IMG/VR virus record: IMGVR_UViG_2563366903_000014
Length of the DNA stretch: 9,380 nucleotides
Origin: a virus
Taxonomy: Duplodnaviria > Heunggongvirae > Uroviricota > Caudoviricetes
Direction: 5' to 3' (one strand)
Of the stretch, positions 1-9,380 are shown piece after piece; the stretch's first letter is position 1, and each line of letters starts with the position of its first letter. The translations under genes and the position numbers were made by a program. The notes beneath the pieces were generated by a model. That model worked only from the letters and a program-made list of their open reading frames with translations. It was not told the DNA's origin and searched no databases.

Positions 1-747
1 AATTGTGTCCTTCGTAGTAATTAAACATCAAGAAACCTTAACAACATCCAATAAAGATTATATTGTATTCAGATATGCAGTAGTATTATTTATTTTTATC
101 AATGTACAATTCCTGTAATCTTTCCTGCTATTTCCTTTCAAAATATTTCACAATAAAGTGATAGAACTAATACCCAACATCAGTTAAAAATATTCGCAAA
201 GTACTCCATCACTATCTACAACGCAACTCCATTTCAATATATTCTCTGTTAATCTCATTTTTGTATTCTGTTCAGATTGAATAAAACTCCCCATGATTTC
301 CCATGTTCAAATCAGGAAATACTGATGATCTGATTTCTTTAGATCAAATTTCTGAGATTACTTTATATTTATCTATCAAGCTGTATACCTTTATACCTGT
401 TATACCAGAGCAAAAAACAAATGAGCTACAACATAAAACCTGTTTTGCAATAAAGCTCACAAATTAAGCATATTTCCATATCTGATAGTCGTTACAAACA
501 AGTCTTTTCCAGCCGTTACTTCCAGCATTACCGTATGGCTGACATTTACGAGGCGGATTTGAGTTCACTGTCAGTTACGGGCTGTGTATTTGCGCGCGCC
601 CACTGTCTGGATCGGGGGACACGTTTATCCGGCGTTGCTCCCATGCTTCGGTCACCCTCCACATGTACGCCATCGCTACGCAGTCAAACTAACCAATTAC
701 TGCGGCAGGACTCTCACCTGCAAGACACTGAGCAGCTTTCGAACCGC

Positions 748-1921: not shown

Positions 1922-3742
1922 TTAATTTTTATCACCCTCATTTTTCACTGGTGCACATGACGGCAGCCAGTCCTCAGACTCATCCATCAGTATCACGTTT
2001 GATCGCACACCTTCTTTCGTTCTCTTTTTCATATACTCCCTGCCATATTCCGCCATTGCGCCTGGCATATCTGCACCGAAGCGCGTCAGTGTTACGGGCT
2101 TACTGAAACCGTGCGCCCTCATATACGAGAGATAGGCGTGATAGAGATAACGGCGCGGACTGAACGGAATAATCTCAGCATTACCGACTAACAGGCCGTC
2201 ACACATTACCGACGACATGAGATAGCCGCAGAAGTCCACCAGCGAATCCCCCTCACGCTTTATTGCAAGGGCTTCTTCTGATTTCTGCTGCTCATGTAAC
2301 AGGCGTCTGGCTTCGTCCTGGTCAGAAAAGCGCGTAAGCAGATGACGAATCACTACAGCAAGCTCACCCTCTATTTTTTCCGGCAGCATCGGATCGCGCT
2401 CGTTTTCCGGTACAACCTCCGAAAAATTGAATATCACACGACGACGCGAGATCCCCCCGCTGCGGTCACTGAATGACATGGCGCTGTTGTTAACCGCCAG
2501 CACTACCGCCGGAATACGCGTTGAGTATGGCGCTTTGTGTTTCGGGTCAATTGCCACCTTGTCACCGCCCGTAATGGCCTTTATTCCTGCTCCATCACCC
2601 GCGTAGCGGGTCATATCCGGCAGAATAATCAGTGAAAAGCCAACCACTAACGCGCGTTCCCTTGCATCCTCCAGTGCCTTCATGCTTGCCGATACCGTGT
2701 TGGCCTTACCCGCCAGCATGGTACAAATCTCCGCCATAACGCTTTTACCGCTTCCACCAGGACCAGTTACCTCAATGAATAACTGCCAGTCGTACCGGTT
2801 CGCCAGCACCATAAATAACGCTGCCAGTACGCGATCCGCCTTGCGGTCATTCTCTGCCACCGAACGGCGCAACCATTTCCAGAAATTCGGCGCATGTGTT
2901 GCCAGCGTTTCACCCTCTGCTGGTGGAGTGAACGGTAACTCACTGGCAATTAACAGCCAGTCATCTTTATCGTGTTCCCGAAAATCACCTGTACGGGTAT
3001 CAAATACCCCGTTGCTGAATCCAATCAGGTGACGGGCGGTATTACCCATTACGGGTAAACTTAACTTCATTGTGTCAACTGCCGATTTAATGGCGTTTTG
3101 TGAATAGCAGATATCTTCGTCAATGAAGATTTGCGCCATTGTGCGCTGTAGCTCTTTGTCCTGCACGGGGGACCATATAACCCCGTTGTAATAGTGAACT
3201 GTGTCAGAGTCAGGGTTTATTGCCAGTTCCCCTCCGTAATGAGCAAGAAGAACCCTGCCACGCTGGCTGGCCCCCATCTGGTTAAGTGCCAGTGACGAAT
3301 CATCACCCTGTCCCCGCGCTTTTTTCTTTACAGGCAGCTCAATAACCAGCCCGTCAGAAATGTTTTTGCGTTCAATATCCAGATAGTTACGCCAGTTCTG
3401 CCGCTCGTTGTGGTGCATTCCTTCAGGGTAGTAATCAGCATCCTGTATACCTGCGGCTGCCAGCTTCTGACCGATGCCTTTGACCATCATCTGATCGAGG
3501 TGTCCGGCCTTGTATATACGCGCTGATTTGCGCCCGTCGGGCACAATTTTCAGATTGCCAATATCCTTAAGTTGTTCATCAGAAAGCACGACTGGCGGAA
3601 CATCATCACCTGCAAGTCGTCCCTCCTGCTCCTGCCACTGTTTCGCGTGCGCCCACGCATCACTGCCAGCGAAAATAATCACTTCCGTATCGGCGTGTTT
3701 TTTCCCTCGCGGCTGTTTTTTTAAGTTCGGTGCGCTTTTCAT
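1922..3742 (-). CDS. DNA primase/helicase, P4 alpha-like (phage/plasmid primase with C-terminal P-loop NTPase domain)
   Basis: 606 aa; Walker A motif GPGGSGKS in the C-terminal half; N-terminal region primase-like; start ATG overlaps stop of upstream small ORF (ATGA at 3739-3742); iterons immediately downstream. Confidence 0.88.
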   Translation of the reverse strand: MKSAPNLKKQPRGKKHADTEVIIFAGSDAWAHAKQWQEQEGRLAGDDVPPVVLSDEQLKDIGNLKIVPDGRKSARIYKAGHLDQMMVKGIGQKLAAAGIQDADYYPEGMHHNERQNWRNYLDIERKNISDGLVIELPVKKKARGQGDDSSLALNQMGASQRGRVLLAHYGGELAINPDSDTVHYYNGVIWSPVQDKELQRTMAQIFIDEDICYSQNAIKSAVDTMKLSLPVMGNTARHLIGFSNGVFDTRTGDFREHDKDDWLLIASELPFTPPAEGETLATHAPNFWKWLRRSVAENDRKADRVLAALFMVLANRYDWQLFIEVTGPGGSGKSVMAEICTMLAGKANTVSASMKALEDARERALVVGFSLIILPDMTRYAGDGAGIKAITGGDKVAIDPKHKAPYSTRIPAVVLAVNNSAMSFSDRSGGISRRRVIFNFSEVVPENERDPMLPEKIEGELAVVIRHLLTRFSDQDEARRLLHEQQKSEEALAIKREGDSLVDFCGYLMSSVMCDGLLVGNAEIIPFSPRRYLYHAYLSYMRAHGFSKPVTLTRFGADMPGAMAEYGREYMKKRTKEGVRSNVILMDESEDWLPSCAPVKNEGDKN

Positions 3743-4032
3743 TTCTTACCTCTGCTGATCGTCTTCTTCATGGCCTTAACATGCGCCTTTGCTTTGTTGT
3801 TGCTGGTTGGGCTACGACGTGGTACGGCCTGCACCAGGGAAAAATCACGCCGGAACTGACAAACAGGCATCACGCAGTCATAGTCATACCCTTCACGGCG
3901 GTAGGTGATGCGCCGTTCCCTCATGCTGATAATCATCACGATGCCGCCGTACTTATCGCGGTAAATATCCCCGCGCATAAATTCGGGTTGAGTTTTGCCA
4001 CTGGCAGTTAAGCCAGTATTTTTTGATTTCAT
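3739..4032 (-). CDS. Hypothetical small basic protein (97 aa) immediately upstream of and coupled to primase
   Basis: AGGAG Shine-Dalgarno about 10 nt upstream of ATG at 4030-4032; stop overlaps primase start. Very basic C-terminus. Function unknown. Confidence 0.5.
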   Translation of the reverse strand: MKSKNTGLTASGKTQPEFMRGDIYRDKYGGIVMIISMRERRITYRREGYDYDCVMPVCQFRRDFSLVQAVPRRSPTSNNKAKAHVKAMKKTISRGKK

Positions 4033-4089: not shown

Positions 4090-4293
4090 TTATTGTTCAG
4101 CGCGTTTTTCTTCCTCCGTCATTAACCATACCGCCACATTTGCGGAAAGTTGTTTAATCAGTCCCGCAATAACAGAAAGGTCATGGTCGTCAATTTCTTC
4201 GTGGTTACGTTCTATCATGCGCTCAATCATGCGGCTGATTACTTCGACCTGCTGCGCTTTCAGTGATGCTTCTGCCAGTGTTATTTCCTGCAT
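4090..4293 (-). CDS. Hypothetical protein (67 aa), predicted helical, acidic
   Basis: ATG at 4291-4293 shares one nucleotide with stop TAA of upstream ORF (TAATG); GGGGTG SD-like sequence upstream. Confidence 0.45.
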   Translation of the reverse strand: MQEITLAEASLKAQQVEVISRMIERMIERNHEEIDDHDLSVIAGLIKQLSANVAVWLMTEEEKRAEQ

Positions 4294-4478
4294 TACTGCA
4301 CCCCATTTATTTCATGAACGGCGTGGATAATTACGCCGGATAAACCGGCTTTAGCTGATTTGTTAATTACTGTGCTGATTGCAGCCTGGACGTTTTCGGC
4401 CTTCACGTTCTGCGTGATGCCAACGGTATAGCCGCGATTATTAACAGCACGGGAAAAGACGCGGAAGGTTTTAAGCAT
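4293..4478 (-). CDS. Hypothetical protein (61 aa)
   Basis: Strong Shine-Dalgarno AGGAGGTGA 5 nt upstream of ATG at 4476-4478; first gene of the leftward operon ending in primase. Confidence 0.55.
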   Translation of the reverse strand: MLKTFRVFSRAVNNRGYTVGITQNVKAENVQAAISTVINKSAKAGLSGVIIHAVHEINGVQ

Positions 4479-5110
4479 GAGTCACCTCCTGACGGATACG
4501 GGCGACAAAAATCAGATGTGCGTGCGGCAGCTGCGCGCGTGCTTCGCGCTCAGTGGCAGCTGTAACGGTGAATATTGCAATGCTGCCTGTCAGGCACTGC
4601 ATAAAGCGCCAGACAAAGTAAGGGCGTGCAGATACAGCCATGTGAAAGGCACCTCTGACTTTGGGATTATACCCACCGCCCAAGAGGCCAATCTTGCTGG
4701 CGGTGGACTGTACGGAATTGGCCTTACTGGTGTTAGAGGAAACCAGCCTTCCCGAAGGAAGTTCCATACAGCCCACCATTGTTGAGGTGTGCGTGTGCGC
4801 CGATACAAAAAAAGACGCTGGCGCGTCGTGTATCGCCTCTAACTCCAGCGGGAGGCCAATCCCGATCCCCGTTTTATAAGGGATAGCCTCAGTATATGCC
4901 GCTTTTTTGCTTAAGTGGTCGGATGTGTTGCGAGAAAAGTTTGTGCGAAAAATACCTGCGTTTTCTTTGAAAGCACATAATAACATCACGTTATTTATGT
5001 TTATGCAGTGTGTCGCAAAGCGACCTGAATCATCACGCAAATTACAACCATAAAAAATACCTGCGCTGTGATATGAGGTACTACAGCGCACCGCTTTACG
5101 GGTACAGACA
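4479..5110. promoter_or_regulatory. Candidate divergent control region between leftward replication operon and rightward small-ORF unit (palindromes, direct repeats, hairpins)
   Basis: 13-bp palindrome TGCCTGTCAGGCA (4584-4596); hairpin CCACCGCC...GGCGGTGG (4673-4706); GGCCAAT motif three times (4686, 4854, and inverted at 4716); hairpin GACGC-tggc-GCGTC (4814-4827) preceded by A7; 13-nt direct repeat AAAAATACCTGCG (4948-4960 and 5053-5065). Specific -35/-10 hexamers could not be assigned with confidence. Confidence 0.4.
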
Positions 5111-5290
5111 ATGACCAACGAAGAATTACAGGCAATCGCATTATCCATACTTGAGCGCCAGCGCGAAAAAGCACGCCAGAAGCGAGAGTATTTGCTTAAT
5201 CCACCTCCTCTCACCAGACCAAAACGATTTGCGCTTGAAGCATTTCTGGATAAATGCCCTCGGCGGTTAATCTCGCCTAAAAACCGATAG
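5111..5290 (+). CDS. Small basic protein, paralog A (59 aa); unknown family
   Basis: ATG 5111, TAG 5288-5290; C-terminal KRFALEAFLDKCPRRLISPKNR is paralogous to the C-terminus of the next ORF; several nucleotide differences between the two copies are synonymous in this frame (gcg/gca, ctg/ctc, cct/cca, tta/cta, aac/aat, cga/cgc). Confidence 0.4.
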   Translation: MTNEELQAIALSILERQREKARQKREYLLNPPPLTRPKRFALEAFLDKCPRRLISPKNR

Positions 5291-5386
5291 CGATCCGCTT
5301 TTGCTTCTCCGACTCCATAAAGCGAATAAAAACCATCAGCGCCGTGGTGTGAGGTACTGCGTCGCTCAGCTGTACAGGAAATAAGT

Positions 5387-5665
5387 ATGGATTTATCACC
5401 AGACGATGAGAAATTTTTACGACAACTACAACACCAACTACTCATGGATGCCATTGTCGAGCAGCAAACAAAGAGCAGCCCGATAGATTCATCGCTGAAT
5501 AAAAAGGCCGCCTCCCGTTTTATTGAAAACAGGATAAGGCGCGGAAAAACATGTGACGACGAGTCAAAGGCATCGCATACAAGAGATAAAAAATTTGCAC
5601 TTGAAGAGTTTCTCAGGAAATACCCACGGCGGCTAAAAGCAACCAAAAATCGCCCGCCAGGCTGA
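5387..5665 (+). CDS. Small basic protein, paralog B (92 aa); unknown family
   Basis: AGGAAA SD 6 nt upstream of ATG 5387; C-terminal KKFALEEFLRKYPRRLKATKNR matches paralog A; conserved upstream leader motif GTG-TGAGGTACT shared with paralog A; intrinsic terminator downstream. Confidence 0.5.
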   Translation: MDLSPDDEKFLRQLQHQLLMDAIVEQQTKSSPIDSSLNKKAASRFIENRIRRGKTCDDESKASHTRDKKFALEEFLRKYPRRLKATKNRPPG

Positions 5666-5731
5666 TAGCATTGTCCACCAGCTACACTCATGGCATAGTT
5701 GGTGATGCGCTTGATTTCCTTTATCTCCACT

Positions 5732-5762
5732 GGCGACCCTTCCATGGTCGCCTTTGTTTTGC
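5732..5762 (+). terminator. Rho-independent terminator for the rightward small-ORF unit
   Basis: Perfect 7-bp GC-rich stem GGCGACC / GGTCGCC (5732-5738 / 5746-5752) with 7-nt loop, followed by TTTGTTTTG on the plus strand; sits between convergent genes. Confidence 0.55.
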
Positions 5763-5765
5763 CTG

Positions 5766-5978
5766 TCATTCCTGCATCATGCGGATATTCGCGCCGTACA
5801 GGGCCGCCAGCGCGATAATTTGATAAAACCTCCCCAAGTATTGCTTAACGTGTTTCATGCGCTCAGCGGCGAAATGGCTCACGATATGGCGCATGTAATC
5901 AGCATGGTTGATGTTCAGTAGTGCGAACTTATCCGCCGTGTCGATGTACCGGACGGCAGGTTTGAGGATGTCAGGCAT
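5766..5978 (-). CDS. Hypothetical protein (about 70 aa), last gene of the alpA-rha operon
   Basis: ATG at 5976-5978 lies 2 nt upstream of the rha stop codon (ATGCCTGA); alternative GTG start at 5984. Confidence 0.45.
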   Translation of the reverse strand: MPDILKPAVRYIDTADKFALLNINHADYMRHIVSHFAAERMKHVKQYLGRFYQIIALAALYGANIRMMQE

Positions 5979-6708
5979 GTTCACGTTCTCCCAGGCGACG
6001 GGCCAGCCAGCGTTGGGCTAATTCGGTGAGACGTTCTTTACGTTCTGGCGTTGGCATATCCATATCCAGTAGCGCACAGTTACGGCTTTCCAGATACGCG
6101 AGCAACGCCAGTTGATCAGCGGTTATATGGTCACGAACTTTTTTTGATGGGATGCCGTTTTTTTTGGCCCATACAGGCGGGTGCATCCCTAATACAAGGC
6201 GCGCAATGAAAGTACATTCGTTGTTATAAGCATGACCGTGTTGAGTGTCTCCAGTACGCTCTATGTATCCCTTCATGGCATCCCCCATAGAGCGCATCTC
6301 AGCTTTGGCCTCACATCTCTCTGCTATCCAGTTAGCCATGCGGTTAAACTGCGCAATGTATGCCTCTTTGAATGCAGCCGCTTTTTTTCCGGTAAATCCC
6401 ATTGTTAAAAACACGAAGCCGTCTTTGGTGACTTCGTAGGCTCTCAATACGCGCCCCTTATGCTCAAATTTAACCCGCCGAAAATTGCGGGTTAAAAATT
6501 CAGCAGAACAACACAGGTTTTCAATCCGGTTAACAACCTTATCGTGATCCTTTCTGAAAAATCGGGCGATAGCCTGTGAAGTGGTTACAGGCTCACCGCC
6601 AGAAGGAAACACTTCCGGCGCAGTGAGTGCATTTTTATTTATTCCGTCAGCAATAATCTCATTGCCGGAAATTACCGAAATAATTGCGGCGAAATCATAA
6701 TTACGCAT
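5971..6708 (-). CDS. rha: Rha-family phage regulatory protein (antirepressor-like)
   Basis: 245 aa; N-terminal region carries the Rha signature (VTTSQAIARFFRKDHDKVVNRIENL ... DGFVFLTMGFTGKKAAAFKEAYIAQFNRM); start overlaps the upstream gene by 8 nt. Confidence 0.82.
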   Translation of the reverse strand: MRNYDFAAIISVISGNEIIADGINKNALTAPEVFPSGGEPVTTSQAIARFFRKDHDKVVNRIENLCCSAEFLTRNFRRVKFEHKGRVLRAYEVTKDGFVFLTMGFTGKKAAAFKEAYIAQFNRMANWIAERCEAKAEMRSMGDAMKGYIERTGDTQHGHAYNNECTFIARLVLGMHPPVWAKKNGIPSKKVRDHITADQLALLAYLESRNCALLDMDMPTPERKERLTELAQRWLARRLGEREHA

Positions 6709-7216
6709 GATTCACCCCCAGAGACGGCGCTGACGTCATCAGGCTGGCGAACGTCTCCATGCGGCGAGCAACTTCCCGCACCGCTTCGGTCGGTGTCATG
6801 CCGTTCTGTATCGCCTCGTTAAAAGCCGATATCCCGATTTCTTGTACAACTGACAACAAATGAAAGCGGTGTTTTGTTTCGTCCTGCTTGAGGTGGCGCA
6901 TATGTTCTGGGTTACGACCGCGAACAATGCGTAACAAGTAATCATGTTGCATTTCATTCAGCATATAGCGCATTTCTGGGCGACCGCGCTTATGGCCTGA
7001 TTTCAGACTATAGCGAGGCAATGCTCCCAGATCGCGTAACTGCTGCTGATGTTTTTTGATCGTCGCGCAAAGACTTTCGTGTTGTATTCCTGCTCGCTCA
7101 GAAATAACGCGGGAATCAATACGCGACTCTGCTTTGTGGCGAATCAATATATCGTTCTGGTTGATTTCAGGCTGAACGAAGCCCTGCCCCTGTACGGGCA
7201 TATTCGGACGTTTCAT
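6701..7216 (-). CDS. Hypothetical protein (171 aa), possible helix-turn-helix DNA-binding protein
   Basis: AGGAG SD 7 nt upstream of ATG 7214-7216; segment ISERAGIQHESLCATIKKH has HTH character; overlaps rha start. Function not recognised. Confidence 0.6.
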   Translation of the reverse strand: MKRPNMPVQGQGFVQPEINQNDILIRHKAESRIDSRVISERAGIQHESLCATIKKHQQQLRDLGALPRYSLKSGHKRGRPEMRYMLNEMQHDYLLRIVRGRNPEHMRHLKQDETKHRFHLLSVVQEIGISAFNEAIQNGMTPTEAVREVARRMETFASLMTSAPSLGVNHA

Positions 7217-7280: not shown

Positions 7281-7484
7281 TTACGCGGCGTTGTTGCGAG
7301 AAGCATCAATACGCTGGTTAATCCATTCGTCGACTTCACTTTCAATAAAAGCCACGGAGCGGGGACCAATTTTTACCGGTTTAGGGAAGCGCCCCAGGCT
7401 GATCAGGCGATAAATCCATGCGCGACCGTAACCAGTACGGCGCATAACCTCAGAAAGACGGATGAATGAATTGTTATTAGCCAT
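7281..7484 (-). CDS. alpA: AlpA/Vis-family transcriptional regulator (prophage CP4-57 regulatory protein family)
   Basis: 67 aa; IRLSEVMRRTGYGRAWIYRLISLGRFPKPVKIGPRSVAFIESEVDEWINQRI resembles E. coli AlpA; AAGGAG SD 8 nt upstream of ATG 7482-7484. Confidence 0.85.
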   Translation of the reverse strand: MANNNSFIRLSEVMRRTGYGRAWIYRLISLGRFPKPVKIGPRSVAFIESEVDEWINQRIDASRNNAA

Positions 7485-8126: not shown

Positions 8127-9341
8127 TTATGCACATACACTAAACTTGCCGTGCACCACGTTTCCGCCCTGTTCCAGTGAGTCCATATAGTCGGCGTACC
8201 ACTGGAGCATCTCCCGCCGTCCGTCCAGATATTGCGCGTGATTGTATGTGCCACGGATCGAGTTTTTATCGACGTGCGCCAGCTGCGTTTCTATCCACGC
8301 GGAGTTATAACCCTGCTCATGCAAAATTGTACTCATGGTATGCCGGAACCCATGACCAGTAACGCGCCCAGCATAGCCAATACGACGAATAAGCACGTTC
8401 ATCGCCATTTCACTCATCGGTTTACTGTGCTGTATTCGACCAGGGAAAATAAACGGATACTGCCCCGTCATGTGTTTCAGTTGTTCCAGAATAGCAATCG
8501 CCTGTTCTGAAAGCGGCACGCAATGAGGACGGCGCATTTTCATTCGTTCTTTCGGCACTTCCCACAGACGATTATCAAAATCAATCTCCTGCCACTCTGC
8601 CTGCCGCAATTCACCCGGACGGAGTCCTGTAAGAATCAACAATCGCATACCCAGCTTGACGATCTGGCTTCCGGTGTACGTATTAAAAACGCGGAAAAAT
8701 TCCGGTAGCTCATCAACTTTCAGATACGCGTAATGCTCTTTTTTGTGTGGTGCAAATGCGCTTGCCAGATCAGGAGCGGGGTTATATTCAGCGCGTCCGG
8801 TAATTATTGCGTACCGAAACACTTCGCCACATCGCTGGCGAACCTTACGCAATTTTTCAGTTGCGCCACGGTCATTAAGACGGGATAGAACCGCGAGCAA
8901 TTCCATCGGCTTAATCTCTGCGATGGGCCTACCTCCAATGTACGGAAAAACGTCTTTTTCAAACGTCTCTATCATTTCCTCTGCATATGAGGGAGACCAT
9001 CGGTCCAGGCGTTTTTCATACCACTCACGGGCGATCACCTCAAAGGTGTTACCGCATTTGTTCGCCTGTTCTCGCTTTTGGGCCTTTCTGACCTCACTCG
9101 GATTAACTCCACCAGCGATAAGCCTTTTGGCTTCATCCCTTGCCGTCCTGGCATCAGAAAGGGACACCTCAGGATAGACACCCAGCGACAACATTTTGGG
9201 CTTGCCTGCAAACCTGTATCGCAATCGCCAGCCCTTCGAACCGTTCGGCTCAATGAGTAACGAAAGCCCGTTGCCGTCATTGAGTGTATAGGCTTTCTCT
9301 TTTGGCTTCGCGCGGCGGATAGCAAGGTCTGAAAGCAACAT
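8127..9341 (-). CDS. int: Tyrosine recombinase / P4-family integrase
   Basis: N-terminus MLLSDLAIRRAKPKEKAYTLNDGNGLSLLIEPNGSKGWRLRY matches the P4/CP4-57 integrase N-terminal pattern; C-terminal catalytic motifs HGFRHT and RGTYNHAQY. ORF is open to the window edge (alternative ATG at 9378-9380), so the true start may be 9341 or lie further upstream. Confidence 0.88.
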   Translation of the reverse strand: MLLSDLAIRRAKPKEKAYTLNDGNGLSLLIEPNGSKGWRLRYRFAGKPKMLSLGVYPEVSLSDARTARDEAKRLIAGGVNPSEVRKAQKREQANKCGNTFEVIAREWYEKRLDRWSPSYAEEMIETFEKDVFPYIGGRPIAEIKPMELLAVLSRLNDRGATEKLRKVRQRCGEVFRYAIITGRAEYNPAPDLASAFAPHKKEHYAYLKVDELPEFFRVFNTYTGSQIVKLGMRLLILTGLRPGELRQAEWQEIDFDNRLWEVPKERMKMRRPHCVPLSEQAIAILEQLKHMTGQYPFIFPGRIQHSKPMSEMAMNVLIRRIGYAGRVTGHGFRHTMSTILHEQGYNSAWIETQLAHVDKNSIRGTYNHAQYLDGRREMLQWYADYMDSLEQGGNVVHGKFSVCA

Positions 9342-9380
9342 GTGTATAGCCCCCAAAAAACGATTTTGTCCTATACGCAT

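What the first reader, a model, noticed from the sequence alone, without database searches (positions are those of the whole stretch)
5040..5765. Oppositely oriented pair of paralogous small basic ORFs with shared leader motif and own terminator, between two leftward operons
Two plus-strand ORFs (59 and 92 aa) share a conserved C-terminal segment (K-[RK]-FALE-[AE]-FL-x-K-x-PRRL...KNR). Many of the nucleotide differences between copies are synonymous in that frame, which argues for protein-level selection. Each is preceded about 30 nt upstream by a conserved element (GTG-TGAGGTACT), in copy A sitting in the loop of an 8-bp hairpin (TGCGCTGT...ACAGCGCA). A good plus-strand terminator follows the second ORF. 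This rightward unit separates the alpA-rha operon from the replication operon, the position a master regulator or immunity module would occupy in a satellite. I do not recognise the protein family.
Basis: seen in the sequence. Interest (0 to 1): 0.65.

Follow-up and report, generated by a model that had tools for sequence, protein, structure and literature searches.

The report
Small genes inside an antisense read-through ORF
In a P4-like phage satellite of E. coli, two small paralogous protein genes of an unnamed family are real, but they lie antisense inside a 432-codon reading frame that the satellite keeps free of stop codons, probably so that ribosomes can escort read-through transcription into its replication genes.

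Summary
ORF A (5111-5290) and ORF B (5387-5665) share a C-terminal block. Each follows a leader hairpin by 28 nt, and a good plus-strand terminator (5732-5762) closes the unit.

The ORFs belong to an uncharacterised, Escherichia-restricted small-protein family with the C-terminus FALEDF-x-KYPRRLK-x-KNRPPG. It has no Pfam, NCBIfam, PHROG or PDB relative. Leu/Arg six-fold codon switches, conservative replacements and a flip in AT skew show protein-level selection on the plus strand.

It is open for 432 codons (4471-5769). This ORF overlaps its upstream neighbour by ATGA. It runs through an isrK/seqA-like element and a C4 (P4 CI-type) immunity RNA, and ends as a nested Icd-like gene. That is the layout of P4 eta/kil.

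In every intact related island this antisense frame stays open (205-558 codons). In seven islands simulated, at most 8 of 2000 runs that keep the plus proteins were stop-free. It is broken only in degraded remnants.

Best reading: a two-strand coding segment. The rightward small-gene cassette sits beside the immunity promoter, bridged by a leftward ORF whose translation matters rather than its product. The small proteins' function is unknown. The case is a new variant of a known kind.

The parts
5062..5090 (+). Leader hairpin A: arms 5062-5069 and 5083-5090, 13-nt loop GATATGAGGTACT. It lies 20 nt upstream of the ORF A ATG.
   Evidence: The stem covaries across 18 leaders.
5111..5290 (+). ORF A, 59 aa. 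A family member of the 'internal' type that ends ...CPRRLISPKNR*.
5338..5366 (+). Leader hairpin B, in register with A (offset 276 nt). The loop GGTGTGAGGTACT is conserved; the stem is degenerate in this window.
5387..5665 (+). ORF B, 92 aa. A family member of the 'terminal' type that ends ...KYPRRLKATKNRPPG*.
   Evidence: (P0019, 96% identical).
5675..5682 (-). Chi site (GCTGGTGG on the minus strand), 10 nt after the ORF B stop. It is conserved at this position in most related islands.
5732..5762 (+). Intrinsic terminator of the plus-strand unit. It lies inside the first 13 codons of the minus-strand ORF.
   Evidence: Non-homologous terminators sit at the same position in L009, L013, L022 and L023.
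4471..5769 (-). eta-like read-through ORF, 432 codons and stop-free. It runs antisense to both small ORFs in the shared-wobble frame.
   Evidence: Pfam Ash hit on residues 292-378. NCBIfam Icd-like hit on residues 385-427.
5766..5984 (-). Upstream 72-aa ORF whose TGA overlaps the ATG of the eta-like ORF (ATGA at 5766-5769). It is fused in frame with the eta-like ORF in L001, L002 and L003.
4808..4884 (-). isrK / P4 seqA-like element, with a terminator at 4814-4827.
   Evidence: Rfam 52.1 bits, above the gathering score of 50. Terminator scan. Pairs with C4 at -62.6 kcal/mol against -38.1 for shuffles.
4696..4783 (-). C4 antisense RNA (P4 CI-type immunity RNA).
   Evidence: Rfam 73.8 bits, above the gathering score of 45. 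P4 itself scores 74.9 bits.
4471..4641 (-). Icd-like gene (56 aa), nested in frame at the 3' end of the eta-like ORF. It overlaps the next gene (4293-4478) by 8 nt.
4885..5061 (.). AT-rich region (GC about 0.40) where the leftward isrK/C4 promoter and the rightward cassette promoter should lie. No strong sigma-70 match was found on either strand.

Best explanation
The interval is a piece of DNA that codes on both strands, in the immunity region of a P4-like / PICI-type satellite (int, alpA, Rha-like genes ... isrK, C4, icd-like, DUF4222, primase, SSB).

Plus strand (shown by sequence comparison). It carries a two-cistron unit of two paralogous members of an uncharacterised, Escherichia-restricted small-protein family. 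Each protein has an N-terminal helix with I-L/I-x-R-Q-x-E, a Pro-rich linker, a short helix FALEDFL and a basic tail PRRLKxxKNRPPG. Each cistron is preceded by a plus-strand RNA hairpin that displays a Shine-Dalgarno-like loop (UGUGAGGUA). The unit ends at an intrinsic terminator.

Minus strand (anatomy shown, function inferred). The same DNA is kept free of stop codons in the one antisense frame that shares wobble positions with the plus genes. This forms the N-terminal two thirds of a 432-codon ORF. The ORF is coupled by ATGA to the alpA-Rha operon. It reads through isrK/seqA and the C4 immunity RNA, ends as a nested Icd-like gene, and overlaps the next gene by 8 nt.

By analogy with P4 eta/kil, I infer the following. 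Transcripts from the upstream induced promoter are translated along this ORF. The travelling ribosomes keep those transcripts immune to C4/seqA-dependent and Rho-dependent termination, so the replication operon is reached. Transcripts from the internal constitutive promoter are untranslated and terminate.

In this reading the act of translation matters, not the polypeptide. The rightward cassette is the unit expressed in the resting state. It converges on, and is antisense to, the read-through transcript. The molecular role of the small proteins is not established. My best guess (low confidence) is a small nucleic-acid-binding or partner-binding regulator acting through its basic C-terminal tail, possibly on its own leader hairpin.
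For: Plus-strand coding.
- The family has 57 clusters in 5.8 billion proteins and 19 representatives in 1.84 billion. It shows at least 5 N-terminal subtypes and a fixed C-terminal block and stop position.
- Leu/Arg first-position synonymous switches are 17 in the plus frame against 3 in the minus frame in the C-terminal block, and 9 against 0 in the 62-aa subtype.
- pN/pS is lower in the plus frame in 97 of 120 pairs. Mean BLOSUM62 of replacements is -0.45 in plus against -1.10 in minus.
- AT skew flips to A>T on the plus strand only in 5000-5700.
- AlphaFold2 predicts three helices, pLDDT 73.

Plus-strand transcription unit.
- Terminators of three unrelated sequences follow the last family gene in different islands.
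- The leader hairpin has 4 pairs with compensatory changes and a covariation score of 0.234 against 0.151 for shuffles (0 of 500 reach it).
- RNAalifold finds the hairpin independently.
- It pairs better as plus-strand RNA (115 of 126 cells, 12 of them G.U) than as minus-strand RNA (105 of 126).

Minus-frame openness.
- There are 0 internal stops in that frame against 10-48 in each of the other five frames, in 9 loci.
- The longest open run in 1000 dinucleotide shuffles is 273 codons or fewer, against 426-557 observed.
- I simulated each island with the plus proteins kept (synonymous permutation) and the non-coding parts shuffled. Stop-free outcomes were 0 of 2000 (window, L012, L015, L019), 1 of 2000 (L009, L021) and 8 of 2000 (L023).
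- All plus genes, including a DUF3950/YlcI-family gene, sit in the shared-wobble frame.
- The antisense frame is open for at least 205 codons in every intact island and only 0-107 codons in degraded remnants.

Coupling and P4 layout.
- There is an ATGA overlap at 5766-5769 and an 8-nt overlap at 4471-4478.
- C4 and isrK lie inside the ORF, as they do in P4 eta (L008 8168-8812).
- C4 pairs with isrK/seqA at -62.6 kcal/mol, with 0 of 300 shuffles as good.
- PMC10111431 summarises the P4 eta mechanism and states that the C4 and isrK models detect CI and seqA relatives in Gram-negative PICIs.
- The minus polypeptide is barely conserved with P4 eta (best E = 0.019). Residues 1-285 hit no family.
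Against: - No expression data were available. Transcription and translation of either strand are inferred.
- No convincing sigma-70 promoter for the plus unit was found in the window.
- The copy B hairpin is thermodynamically unremarkable here.
- Frame-wise dN/dS discriminates only weakly, because the two frames share wobble positions. The codon alignment was built on the plus-frame proteins, which favours that frame.
- The minus-strand RNA of 5000-5700 is G>C and U-rich, so it is not a classic C-rich rut region. A Rho-polarity rationale therefore rests mainly on the downstream isrK/C4 region.
- Several sister islands with an equally open minus frame have no C4 or isrK hit at the gathering score (L009, L013, L015). 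Escape from C4 immunity cannot be the only reason for openness.
- The primary P4 eta paper (Forti et al. 1999) could not be read here.
Confidence: 0.6

Rival explanations
1. The pair of small basic proteins is the satellite's master regulator or immunity module, a rightward unit that simply separates two independent leftward operons.
For: The unit sits beside the immunity promoter region. It is conserved in homologous islands with its own leader and terminator. The proteins have a basic tail that could bind nucleic acid.
Against: The region already has a complete P4-type RNA immunity set: C4 plus the isrK/seqA element, with strong pairing. Sister islands carry an RHH-like gene with three matched operator repeats as the obvious repressor, and the family gene is only the second cistron there. 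The family shows no DNA-binding fold and no relation to RHH proteins or to any solved structure. The two operons are not separate, because a coupled, stop-free ORF joins them.
Confidence: 0.15
2. Only the minus-strand ORF is a real gene, a long eta / Bro-network protein as PGAP annotates in L001 and L003. The plus-strand ORFs are antisense shadows with no products.
For: PGAP calls a 502-aa 'Icd-like' CDS in L001 and an 'ash family' pseudogene in L003 over the same DNA. The minus frame is clearly under selection to stay open. Shared wobble makes the two frames look similarly conserved.
Against: Six-fold codon switches favour the plus frame, 17 to 3 and 9 to 0. Plus-frame replacements are more conservative, including K/R and L/M swaps in remote members. 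Start, stop and leader spacing are fixed across subtypes. Plus-strand terminators of unrelated sequence recur. G.U pairs favour the hairpin on plus-strand RNA. AT skew marks the plus strand as the sense strand. One antisense gene in sister islands belongs to an independent family, DUF3950/YlcI-YnfO. The minus translation is Ser/Cys/Arg-rich with no family hit in residues 1-285.
Confidence: 0.08
3. Only the plus strand is functional. The long open minus frame is a by-product of codon composition and history, and is not translated.
For: The shared-wobble antisense frame intrinsically has few stop opportunities inside the plus ORFs. Under synonymous permutation, P(no stop) is 0.17 for the window and 0.03 to 0.7 for other loci.
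Against: More than half of the open stretch is non-coding on the plus strand (promoter, operators, leaders, terminators, RNA genes). Whole-region simulations give 0-8 stop-free outcomes per 2000 in seven lineages. The frame is broken only in degraded remnants. There are start/stop overlaps at both ends. The layout matches P4 eta.
Confidence: 0.07
4. The plus-strand unit acts mainly as RNA. It would be a convergent antisense transcript with structured leader hairpins that blocks leaky read-through from the alpA operon. Its ORFs would be translated incidentally or act only as spacers.
For: The transcript would be fully complementary to the 5' two thirds of the read-through ORF and would end just inside that ORF's start. 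The leader hairpin is the most conserved nucleotide element and covaries. In sister islands the scan also flags the hairpin as terminator-like.
Against: Protein-level signatures in the plus frame are not explained by an RNA-only role. Outside the leader no structure was sought or found. Antisense action and protein function do not exclude each other.
Confidence: 0.1

Closest known systems
Bacteriophage P4 eta/kil nested genes with CI RNA / seqA immunity (Forti et al. 1999 and Sabbattini et al. 1995, as summarised in PMC10111431)
   Same: - A long ORF on the operon strand starts upstream of the constitutive immunity promoter and follows the alpA/vis-type gene.
- The ORF contains the seqA (isrK) and CI (C4) elements.
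- It ends in frame as a small cell-division / killing gene.
- The order and spacing of isrK, C4 and the stop are alike.
   Different: - The ORF here is twice as long (432 against 214 codons).
- Its upstream part runs antisense through a complete oppositely oriented gene cassette with leaders and a terminator, which P4 lacks.
- The polypeptides are almost unrelated (E = 0.019).
- The nested gene is Icd-like (NF033153) rather than P4 kil.
- The function was not tested here.
P1/P7 immI module (c4 RNA - icd - ant)
   Same: A C4-family antisense RNA lies upstream of an Icd-like gene, with target sites that pair with it.
   Different: It sits in a satellite with alpA, primase and SSB genes. No ant gene follows icd. 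Read-through from an upstream operon is of the P4 type.
P22 immI-type divergent RHH repressors (Mnt/Arc) and the DUF3950 / YlcI-YnfO family
   Same: In sister islands the first gene of the rightward cassette is a small RHH-like protein (one is DUF3950 / NF041551). It faces three matched operator repeats in the divergent promoter region.
   Different: The window has no such gene. ORF A and B are unrelated to it (hhalign probability 0.4%). The RHH fold is my inference from the sequence pattern.
Antisense-embedded (overlapping) protein genes reported in enterohaemorrhagic E. coli (from memory: nog1, asa, laoB, pop)
   Same: Small protein-coding genes lie fully inside a longer ORF on the other strand.
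   Different: Here the long ORF, not the short one, is the atypical partner. Whole operons, with their regulatory sites, are embedded. The arrangement recurs in many diverged islands under measurable selection.

Membership tests
C4 antisense RNA (Rfam RF01695; P4 CI / P1 C4) | Covariance-model score above the gathering threshold | tested here: met
   4696-4783(-), 73.8 bits against a threshold of 45, full-length match. P4 itself scores 74.9 bits. It lies outside the finding's coordinates but inside the same minus-strand ORF.
C4 antisense RNA (Rfam RF01695; P4 CI / P1 C4) | Complementary target sites on the same transcript | tested here: met
   Inverted repeats 4727-4739/4836-4848 and 4713-4724/4853-4864. 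Duplex with isrK/seqA is -62.6 kcal/mol against -38.1 for shuffles, 0 of 300 as good.
isrK / P4 seqA-like element (Rfam RF01394) | Covariance-model score above the gathering threshold, with a 3' terminator | tested here: met
   4808-4884(-), 52.1 bits against a threshold of 50. Minus-strand terminator at 4814-4827.
P4 eta-type read-through ORF | ORF starts upstream of the internal immunity promoter and spans seqA and CI | tested here: met
   ORF 4471-5769(-) contains isrK and C4 and starts 885 nt upstream of isrK. P4 eta, 8168-8812, contains both elements.
P4 eta-type read-through ORF | A small killing / division-inhibitor gene nested in the same frame at the 3' end | tested here: met
   The last 56 codons are an Icd-like protein (NF033153, E = 7.6e-13). 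It is annotated separately in L002.
P4 eta-type read-through ORF | Translational coupling to the upstream gene of the induced operon | tested here: met
   ATGA overlap at 5766-5769. The upstream ORF is fused in frame in L001, L002 and L003. This is shown by sequence only.
P4 eta-type read-through ORF | Translation of the ORF suppresses immunity-specific / Rho-dependent termination | not testable with these tools
   Needs genetics and transcript mapping. The only indirect support is selection against stop codons.
P4 eta-type read-through ORF | Sequence homology of the polypeptide to P4 Eta | tested here: inconclusive
   The Pfam Ash family hits residues 292-378 (E = 4.7e-8). Direct BLASTP to P4 eta gives only E = 0.019 over 39 residues. 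That similarity lies over the conserved RNA elements.
Any described protein family, for ORF A and ORF B | Significant profile match (Pfam, NCBIfam, PHROGs, PDB sequences, PDB folds) | tested here: not met
   No hit at E <= 1 in Pfam or NCBIfam. Only E >= 0.12 in PHROGs. No PDB sequence hit with the family profile. No Foldseek hit.
YlcI/YnfO (DUF3950, NF041551) / RHH-like first-gene proteins of sister islands | Profile similarity of ORF A and B to these proteins | tested here: not met
   hhalign of the family alignment against the first-gene alignment gives probability 0.4%. ORF A and B have no NF041551 or PF13132 hit.
Rho-independent terminator (for 5732-5762, plus strand) | GC-rich stem-loop followed by a T-run, on the strand of the unit | tested here: met
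   7-bp stem with 6 GC pairs, loop of 7, tail TTTGTTTTGC. z = -3.9. The T-run is on the plus strand only.
Type II toxin-antitoxin pair | Antitoxin gene followed by a toxin of a known family, one of each | tested here: not met
   The window has two copies of the putative 'toxin' and no RHH partner. There is no Pfam toxin hit. PADLOC was not searched.

The most novel reading that the evidence does not exclude
E. coli satellites of this type maintain a 'translational bridge'. This is an ORF of 1-1.7 kb whose amino-acid sequence is nearly free to vary but which may not contain a stop codon. It is laid antisense over an entire oppositely oriented regulatory cassette: promoter, operators, repressor gene, small-protein genes, leader hairpins and terminator. 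Its purpose would be that ribosomes escort induced read-through transcription from the alpA operon into the replication operon. The embedded small proteins, a new family tied one-to-one to a conserved RNA hairpin, would be resting-state factors that act on that hairpin or on the read-through process. This would be obligate two-strand coding, selected for the act of translation rather than for a product.
Probability: 0.4. Interest if true: 0.8.

Novelty: new variant of a known kind. Interest (0 to 1): 0.62.

Why it matters
If the reading is right, it gives a clean natural example of an ORF selected to be translated rather than to encode a protein. It also shows complete genes, with their control sites, embedded antisense within that ORF.

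It extends the P4 eta mechanism to a large group of E. coli islands. About 1100 of 5426 complete genomes carry at least a remnant.

It explains why annotation pipelines disagree on this DNA. The same sequence is called a 502-aa 'Icd-like' protein, an 'ash family' pseudogene, or plus-strand hypothetical proteins.

It defines an unnamed small-protein family with a strictly associated RNA hairpin, which can now be tested.

It offers a precise experiment: single-base changes that are silent on one strand and nonsense on the other.

Tried and rejected
1. C4 RNA pairing with the leader loops. The loop GGUGUGAGG resembles the C4 target, but duplex energies are no better than shuffles (104 and 146 of 300 shuffles as good). 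Rejected.

2. Family related to the RHH-like / DUF3950 first genes. hhalign probability is 0.4%. Rejected.

3. Fold recognition. The AlphaFold2 model is three helices with pTM 0.30. Foldseek against PDB gives 0 hits. Uninformative.

4. Pfam, NCBIfam and PHROGs on ORF A and B gave nothing.

5. Wider taxonomic reach. There are only 2 loci in 185,579 species-representative genomes, both E. coli/Shigella, and 19 representatives in 1.84 billion proteins. Covariation and selection tests therefore had to rest on E. coli pangenome diversity.

6. Classical dN/dS by frame discriminates poorly, because plus position 3 is also minus position 3 (0.63 against 0.72). I replaced it with counts of six-fold codon switches.

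7. Toxin-antitoxin reading. Rejected, because the window has two copies and no partner.

8. A 7-codon mini-ORF in the leader (TTG...TGA overlapping the main ATG) is present in several islands. It is absent from both window copies and from others, so it is not a conserved feature (read).

9. Promoter search for the plus unit in the window found only 7-of-12 matches. L021 has a better TTGCAA-17-TATATT at the homologous place (read).

10. The primary P4 eta paper could not be obtained. A literature search for DUF3950/YlcI and for antisense cassettes in satellites found nothing relevant.
Full report
CONTEXT

The window is a P4-like / PICI-type satellite with all main genes on the minus strand:
- integrase, 8127-9380
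- AlpA, 7281-7484 (PF05930, E = 2e-20)
- two Rha-like genes, 6701-7216 and 5971-6708
- a 72-aa ORF, 5766-5984
- then the region of interest
- two small ORFs, 4293-4478 and 4090-4293
- DUF4222, 3739-4032
- a primase, 1922-3742
- SSB, 748-1188

Rfam finds a C4 antisense RNA at 4696-4783(-) (73.8 bits, gathering score 45). It also finds an isrK element at 4808-4884(-) (52.1 bits, gathering score 50). Phage P4 gives the same two hits in the same order inside its eta gene. The closest complete E. coli genome is only 94% identical over this region.

THE OBSERVATION

- ORF A (5111-5290, 59 aa) and ORF B (5387-5665, 92 aa) are in the same plus frame.
- They share a C-terminal block: 17 of 25 residues identical, E = 7e-9.
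- A 53-nt repeat precedes both, 276 nt apart.
- TGAGGTACT lies exactly 28 nt before each ATG.
- Copy A has the 8-bp hairpin 5062-5069 / 5083-5090. Copy B's stem is degenerate.
- The terminator at 5732-5762 is found by the scan and has z = -3.9.

ARE THE PLUS ORFS GENES?

A profile search of 5.8 billion proteins found 57 clusters, all from E. coli or Shigella and all called 'hypothetical'. An exhaustive HMMER search of 1.84 billion representatives found 19. Species-representative genomes gave 2 loci.

Members are 56-92 aa. They fall into at least five N-terminal subtypes that share a helix motif (I-L/I-x-R-Q-x-E) and a Pro-rich linker. The C-terminus is nearly invariant: (K/R)FALEDF(V/L)xKYPRRLKxxKNRPPG followed by the stop. 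Remote members replace PRRLK with PKKMR, PKRMR or SRKMR. These are conservative changes at the protein level.

The plus frame and the open minus frame share their third codon positions. Wobble periodicity and ordinary dN/dS therefore barely discriminate between them: pooled pN/pS is 0.63 against 0.72, and plus is lower in 97 of 120 pairs.

The diagnostic events are first-position changes that stay synonymous, namely Leu CTN/TTR and Arg CGN/AGR.
- In the C-terminal block there are 17 in the plus frame against 3 in the minus frame.
- In the 62-aa subtype there are 9 against 0.

Amino-acid replacements are milder in the plus frame, with mean BLOSUM62 of -0.45 against -1.10. AT skew switches to A>T on the plus strand only across 5000-5700, which is the sign of a plus-sense coding segment between minus-sense genes. 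AlphaFold2 predicts three helices with a mean pLDDT of 73.

No Pfam, NCBIfam, PHROG, PDB-sequence or PDB-fold relative exists. I conclude that the two ORFs are real genes of an undescribed family.

THE LEADER AND THE TERMINATOR

The leader is found in front of every family gene in 24 distinct versions. Its consensus is ..AATAAAAACCATCA-GCGCCGT-GGTGTGAGGTACT-ACGGCGC-ATTGCTTTACAGG-N8-ATG.

The stem changes with compensation:
- GCGCTGT / ACAGCGC in the window
- TTTGCCG / CGGTAAA in L004
- GTGCC / GGCAC in L015
- TGTGCCGT / ACGGTGTA in L024

On 18 distinct leaders, 83% of cells pair, against 19-60% when the partner is slid. Four pairs show double changes. The covariation score is 0.234 against 0.151 in shuffles, and 0 of 500 shuffles reach it. 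RNAalifold finds a 9-bp stem with a 9-nt loop UGUGAGGUA on its own. G.U pairs make the stem better on plus-strand RNA (115 of 126 cells) than on minus-strand RNA (105 of 126).

Downstream of the last family gene, different islands carry plus-strand intrinsic terminators of three unrelated sequences. Functional conservation without sequence conservation argues strongly for a plus-strand transcription unit.

No good promoter was found in the window.

The minus strand is open from 5769 to 4471, 432 codons.
- The ATG overlaps the stop of the upstream ORF (ATGA, 5766-5769).
- The stop overlaps the next gene by 8 nt.
- The last 56 codons are an Icd-like protein (NF033153).
- Residues 292-378 hit the Pfam Ash family, which lies over isrK and C4.

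This is the layout of P4 eta/kil. PMC10111431 summarises that system as follows. Eta is translated only from the upstream late promoter and is coupled to the alpA homologue. Its translation prevents termination at the CI/seqA sites. Kil is the in-frame truncated product.

IS THE OPEN FRAME SELECTED?

- In nine loci the frame has no internal stop, while each of the other five frames has 10-48.
- Dinucleotide shuffles never exceed 273 open codons, against 426-557 observed.
- I ran simulations that keep the plus-strand proteins by synonymous permutation and shuffle the rest. They give 0 of 2000 stop-free outcomes for the window, L012, L015 and L019, 1 of 2000 for L009 and L021, and 8 of 2000 for L023.
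- Every plus-strand gene in these cassettes lies in the shared-wobble frame relative to the open minus frame. This includes a DUF3950/YlcI-family gene.
- Across 30 distinct family proteins in 69 sequences, the antisense frame is open for at least 205 codons in every intact island. It is open for only 0-107 codons in the degraded remnants of the iha island.

The minus polypeptide itself is hardly conserved: E = 0.019 against P4 eta. Its residues 1-285 hit no family. It is rich in Ser, Cys and Arg, like an antisense translation. So selection acts on the absence of stops, not on the product.

SISTER ISLANDS

Related islands (L007, L009-L016, L019-L023) have the same order: int, alpA, a plus-strand cassette, Icd-like, DUF4222, helicase or primase, SSB.

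There the first cassette gene is usually a small RHH-like protein. One is DUF3950 / NF041551. It is preceded by three operator-like repeats that differ from island to island. The family gene follows with its leader. L015 has four plus genes under a 558-codon minus frame.

The window has no RHH-like gene, but it has two family genes plus the C4/isrK RNA immunity. In L002 the two copies have collapsed into one hybrid gene, through a deletion that keeps both frames.

MECHANISM

Shown:
- the anatomy
- protein-level selection on the plus frame
- the plus-strand hairpin and terminators
- selection against stops in the minus frame
- the couplings at both ends of the minus ORF
- the C4-seqA pairing (-62.6 kcal/mol against -38.1 for shuffles)

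Inferred:
- At rest, the internal promoter makes isrK/C4 transcripts that terminate.
- At rest, the rightward cassette is also expressed. It is convergent with and antisense to the alpA operon.
- On induction, transcription from the alpA side is translated along the bridge ORF, so it passes the immunity terminator and reaches the replication genes.

The function of the small proteins is unknown. A basic-tail regulator acting on its own hairpin is a guess.

CAVEATS

- No expression data were available.
- No promoter was found for the plus unit in the window.
- The minus RNA in 5000-5700 is not C-rich, so it is not a classic Rho loading site.
- Some islands with an open frame lack C4 and isrK. 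Protection from general polarity, not only from C4 immunity, must then be the reason for openness.

VERDICT

The case is a new variant of a known kind: the P4 eta/CI system, with an antisense-embedded gene cassette and a new small-protein family.

Noticed in passing
window 5675-5682; also 1152, 2236 and 9109 (CCACCAGC on the plus strand): Chi sites (GCTGGTGG) are enriched on the minus strand: 4 in 9.4 kb against 1 on the plus strand. One sits 10 nt after the ORF B stop. It is conserved at that spot in most related islands, inside the block TAGCATTGTCCACCAGC.
   Followed up: partly
window 570-723 (-): Rfam match to group II intron domains D1-D4 (RF02003, 67.1 bits, above the gathering score of 49), just beyond the SSB gene. 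It may be an intron or an intron remnant at the edge of the replication module.
   Followed up: no
L009 3547-3745; L012 3572-3763; L015 2525-2713: Sister islands carry three island-specific operator-like repeats in the divergent promoter region. They are TGTGCGCACA in L009, GGTGTCAGCCAC in L012 and GGTGAAATACAC in L015. Each set sits next to a different small RHH-like first gene, which suggests matched repressor and operator specificities.
   Followed up: partly
L002 5214-5402 (62 aa, WP_071827874.1): This is a single-copy hybrid gene with the ORF A N-terminus and the ORF B C-terminus. It apparently arose by a deletion between the two repeated C-terminal blocks that keeps both the plus ORF and the minus frame intact. 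This form occurs in many O157-type genomes.
   Followed up: partly
L001 4572-6080; L003 4791-6119; L002 5214-5402; L005 4992-5264: RefSeq annotation of the same DNA is inconsistent. It is called a 502-aa 'Icd-like protein', an 'ash family' pseudogene, a plus-strand hypothetical protein, or a minus-strand 90-aa hypothetical protein.
   Followed up: yes
L025, L026, L028, L029, L042, L050 (IMG/VR contigs): A different 57-62-aa protein (MQDNTMTDKELTKTLSPARKRRRRKIEH...FLKEYREKRSLQVWQRTEPD) occupies the same position. It follows a similar leader and lies under an open antisense frame of 210-402 codons. It may be a second family that uses the same leader.
   Followed up: no
window 5288-5290 compared with 5663-5665; L015 3677-3913: Family genes that are followed by another leader end ...(K/R)NR*. 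The last gene of a cassette ends ...NRPPG* and is followed by the Chi block and the terminator. So there are 'internal' and 'terminal' forms.
   Followed up: no
L009 3953-3979; L013 2023-2049; L022 2953-2979: The terminator scan also flags the leader hairpin plus its tail ATTGCTTTAC as terminator-like on the plus strand. It could therefore act as a leaky attenuator between the first gene and the family gene. The window copies have fewer T in the tail.
   Followed up: no
L004 6843-6916 (-): The EHEC sRNA Esr41 (RF02676, 103 bits) lies about 1.4 kb from the degraded cassette remnant in the iha island.
   Followed up: no
L013 about 2360-2400; L023 about 3260-3300: In these islands the plus-strand terminator overlaps the Shine-Dalgarno region (AAGGAG / AATGAG) and the ATG of the minus-strand bridge ORF. 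The rightward unit therefore ends exactly where leftward translation begins.
   Followed up: no
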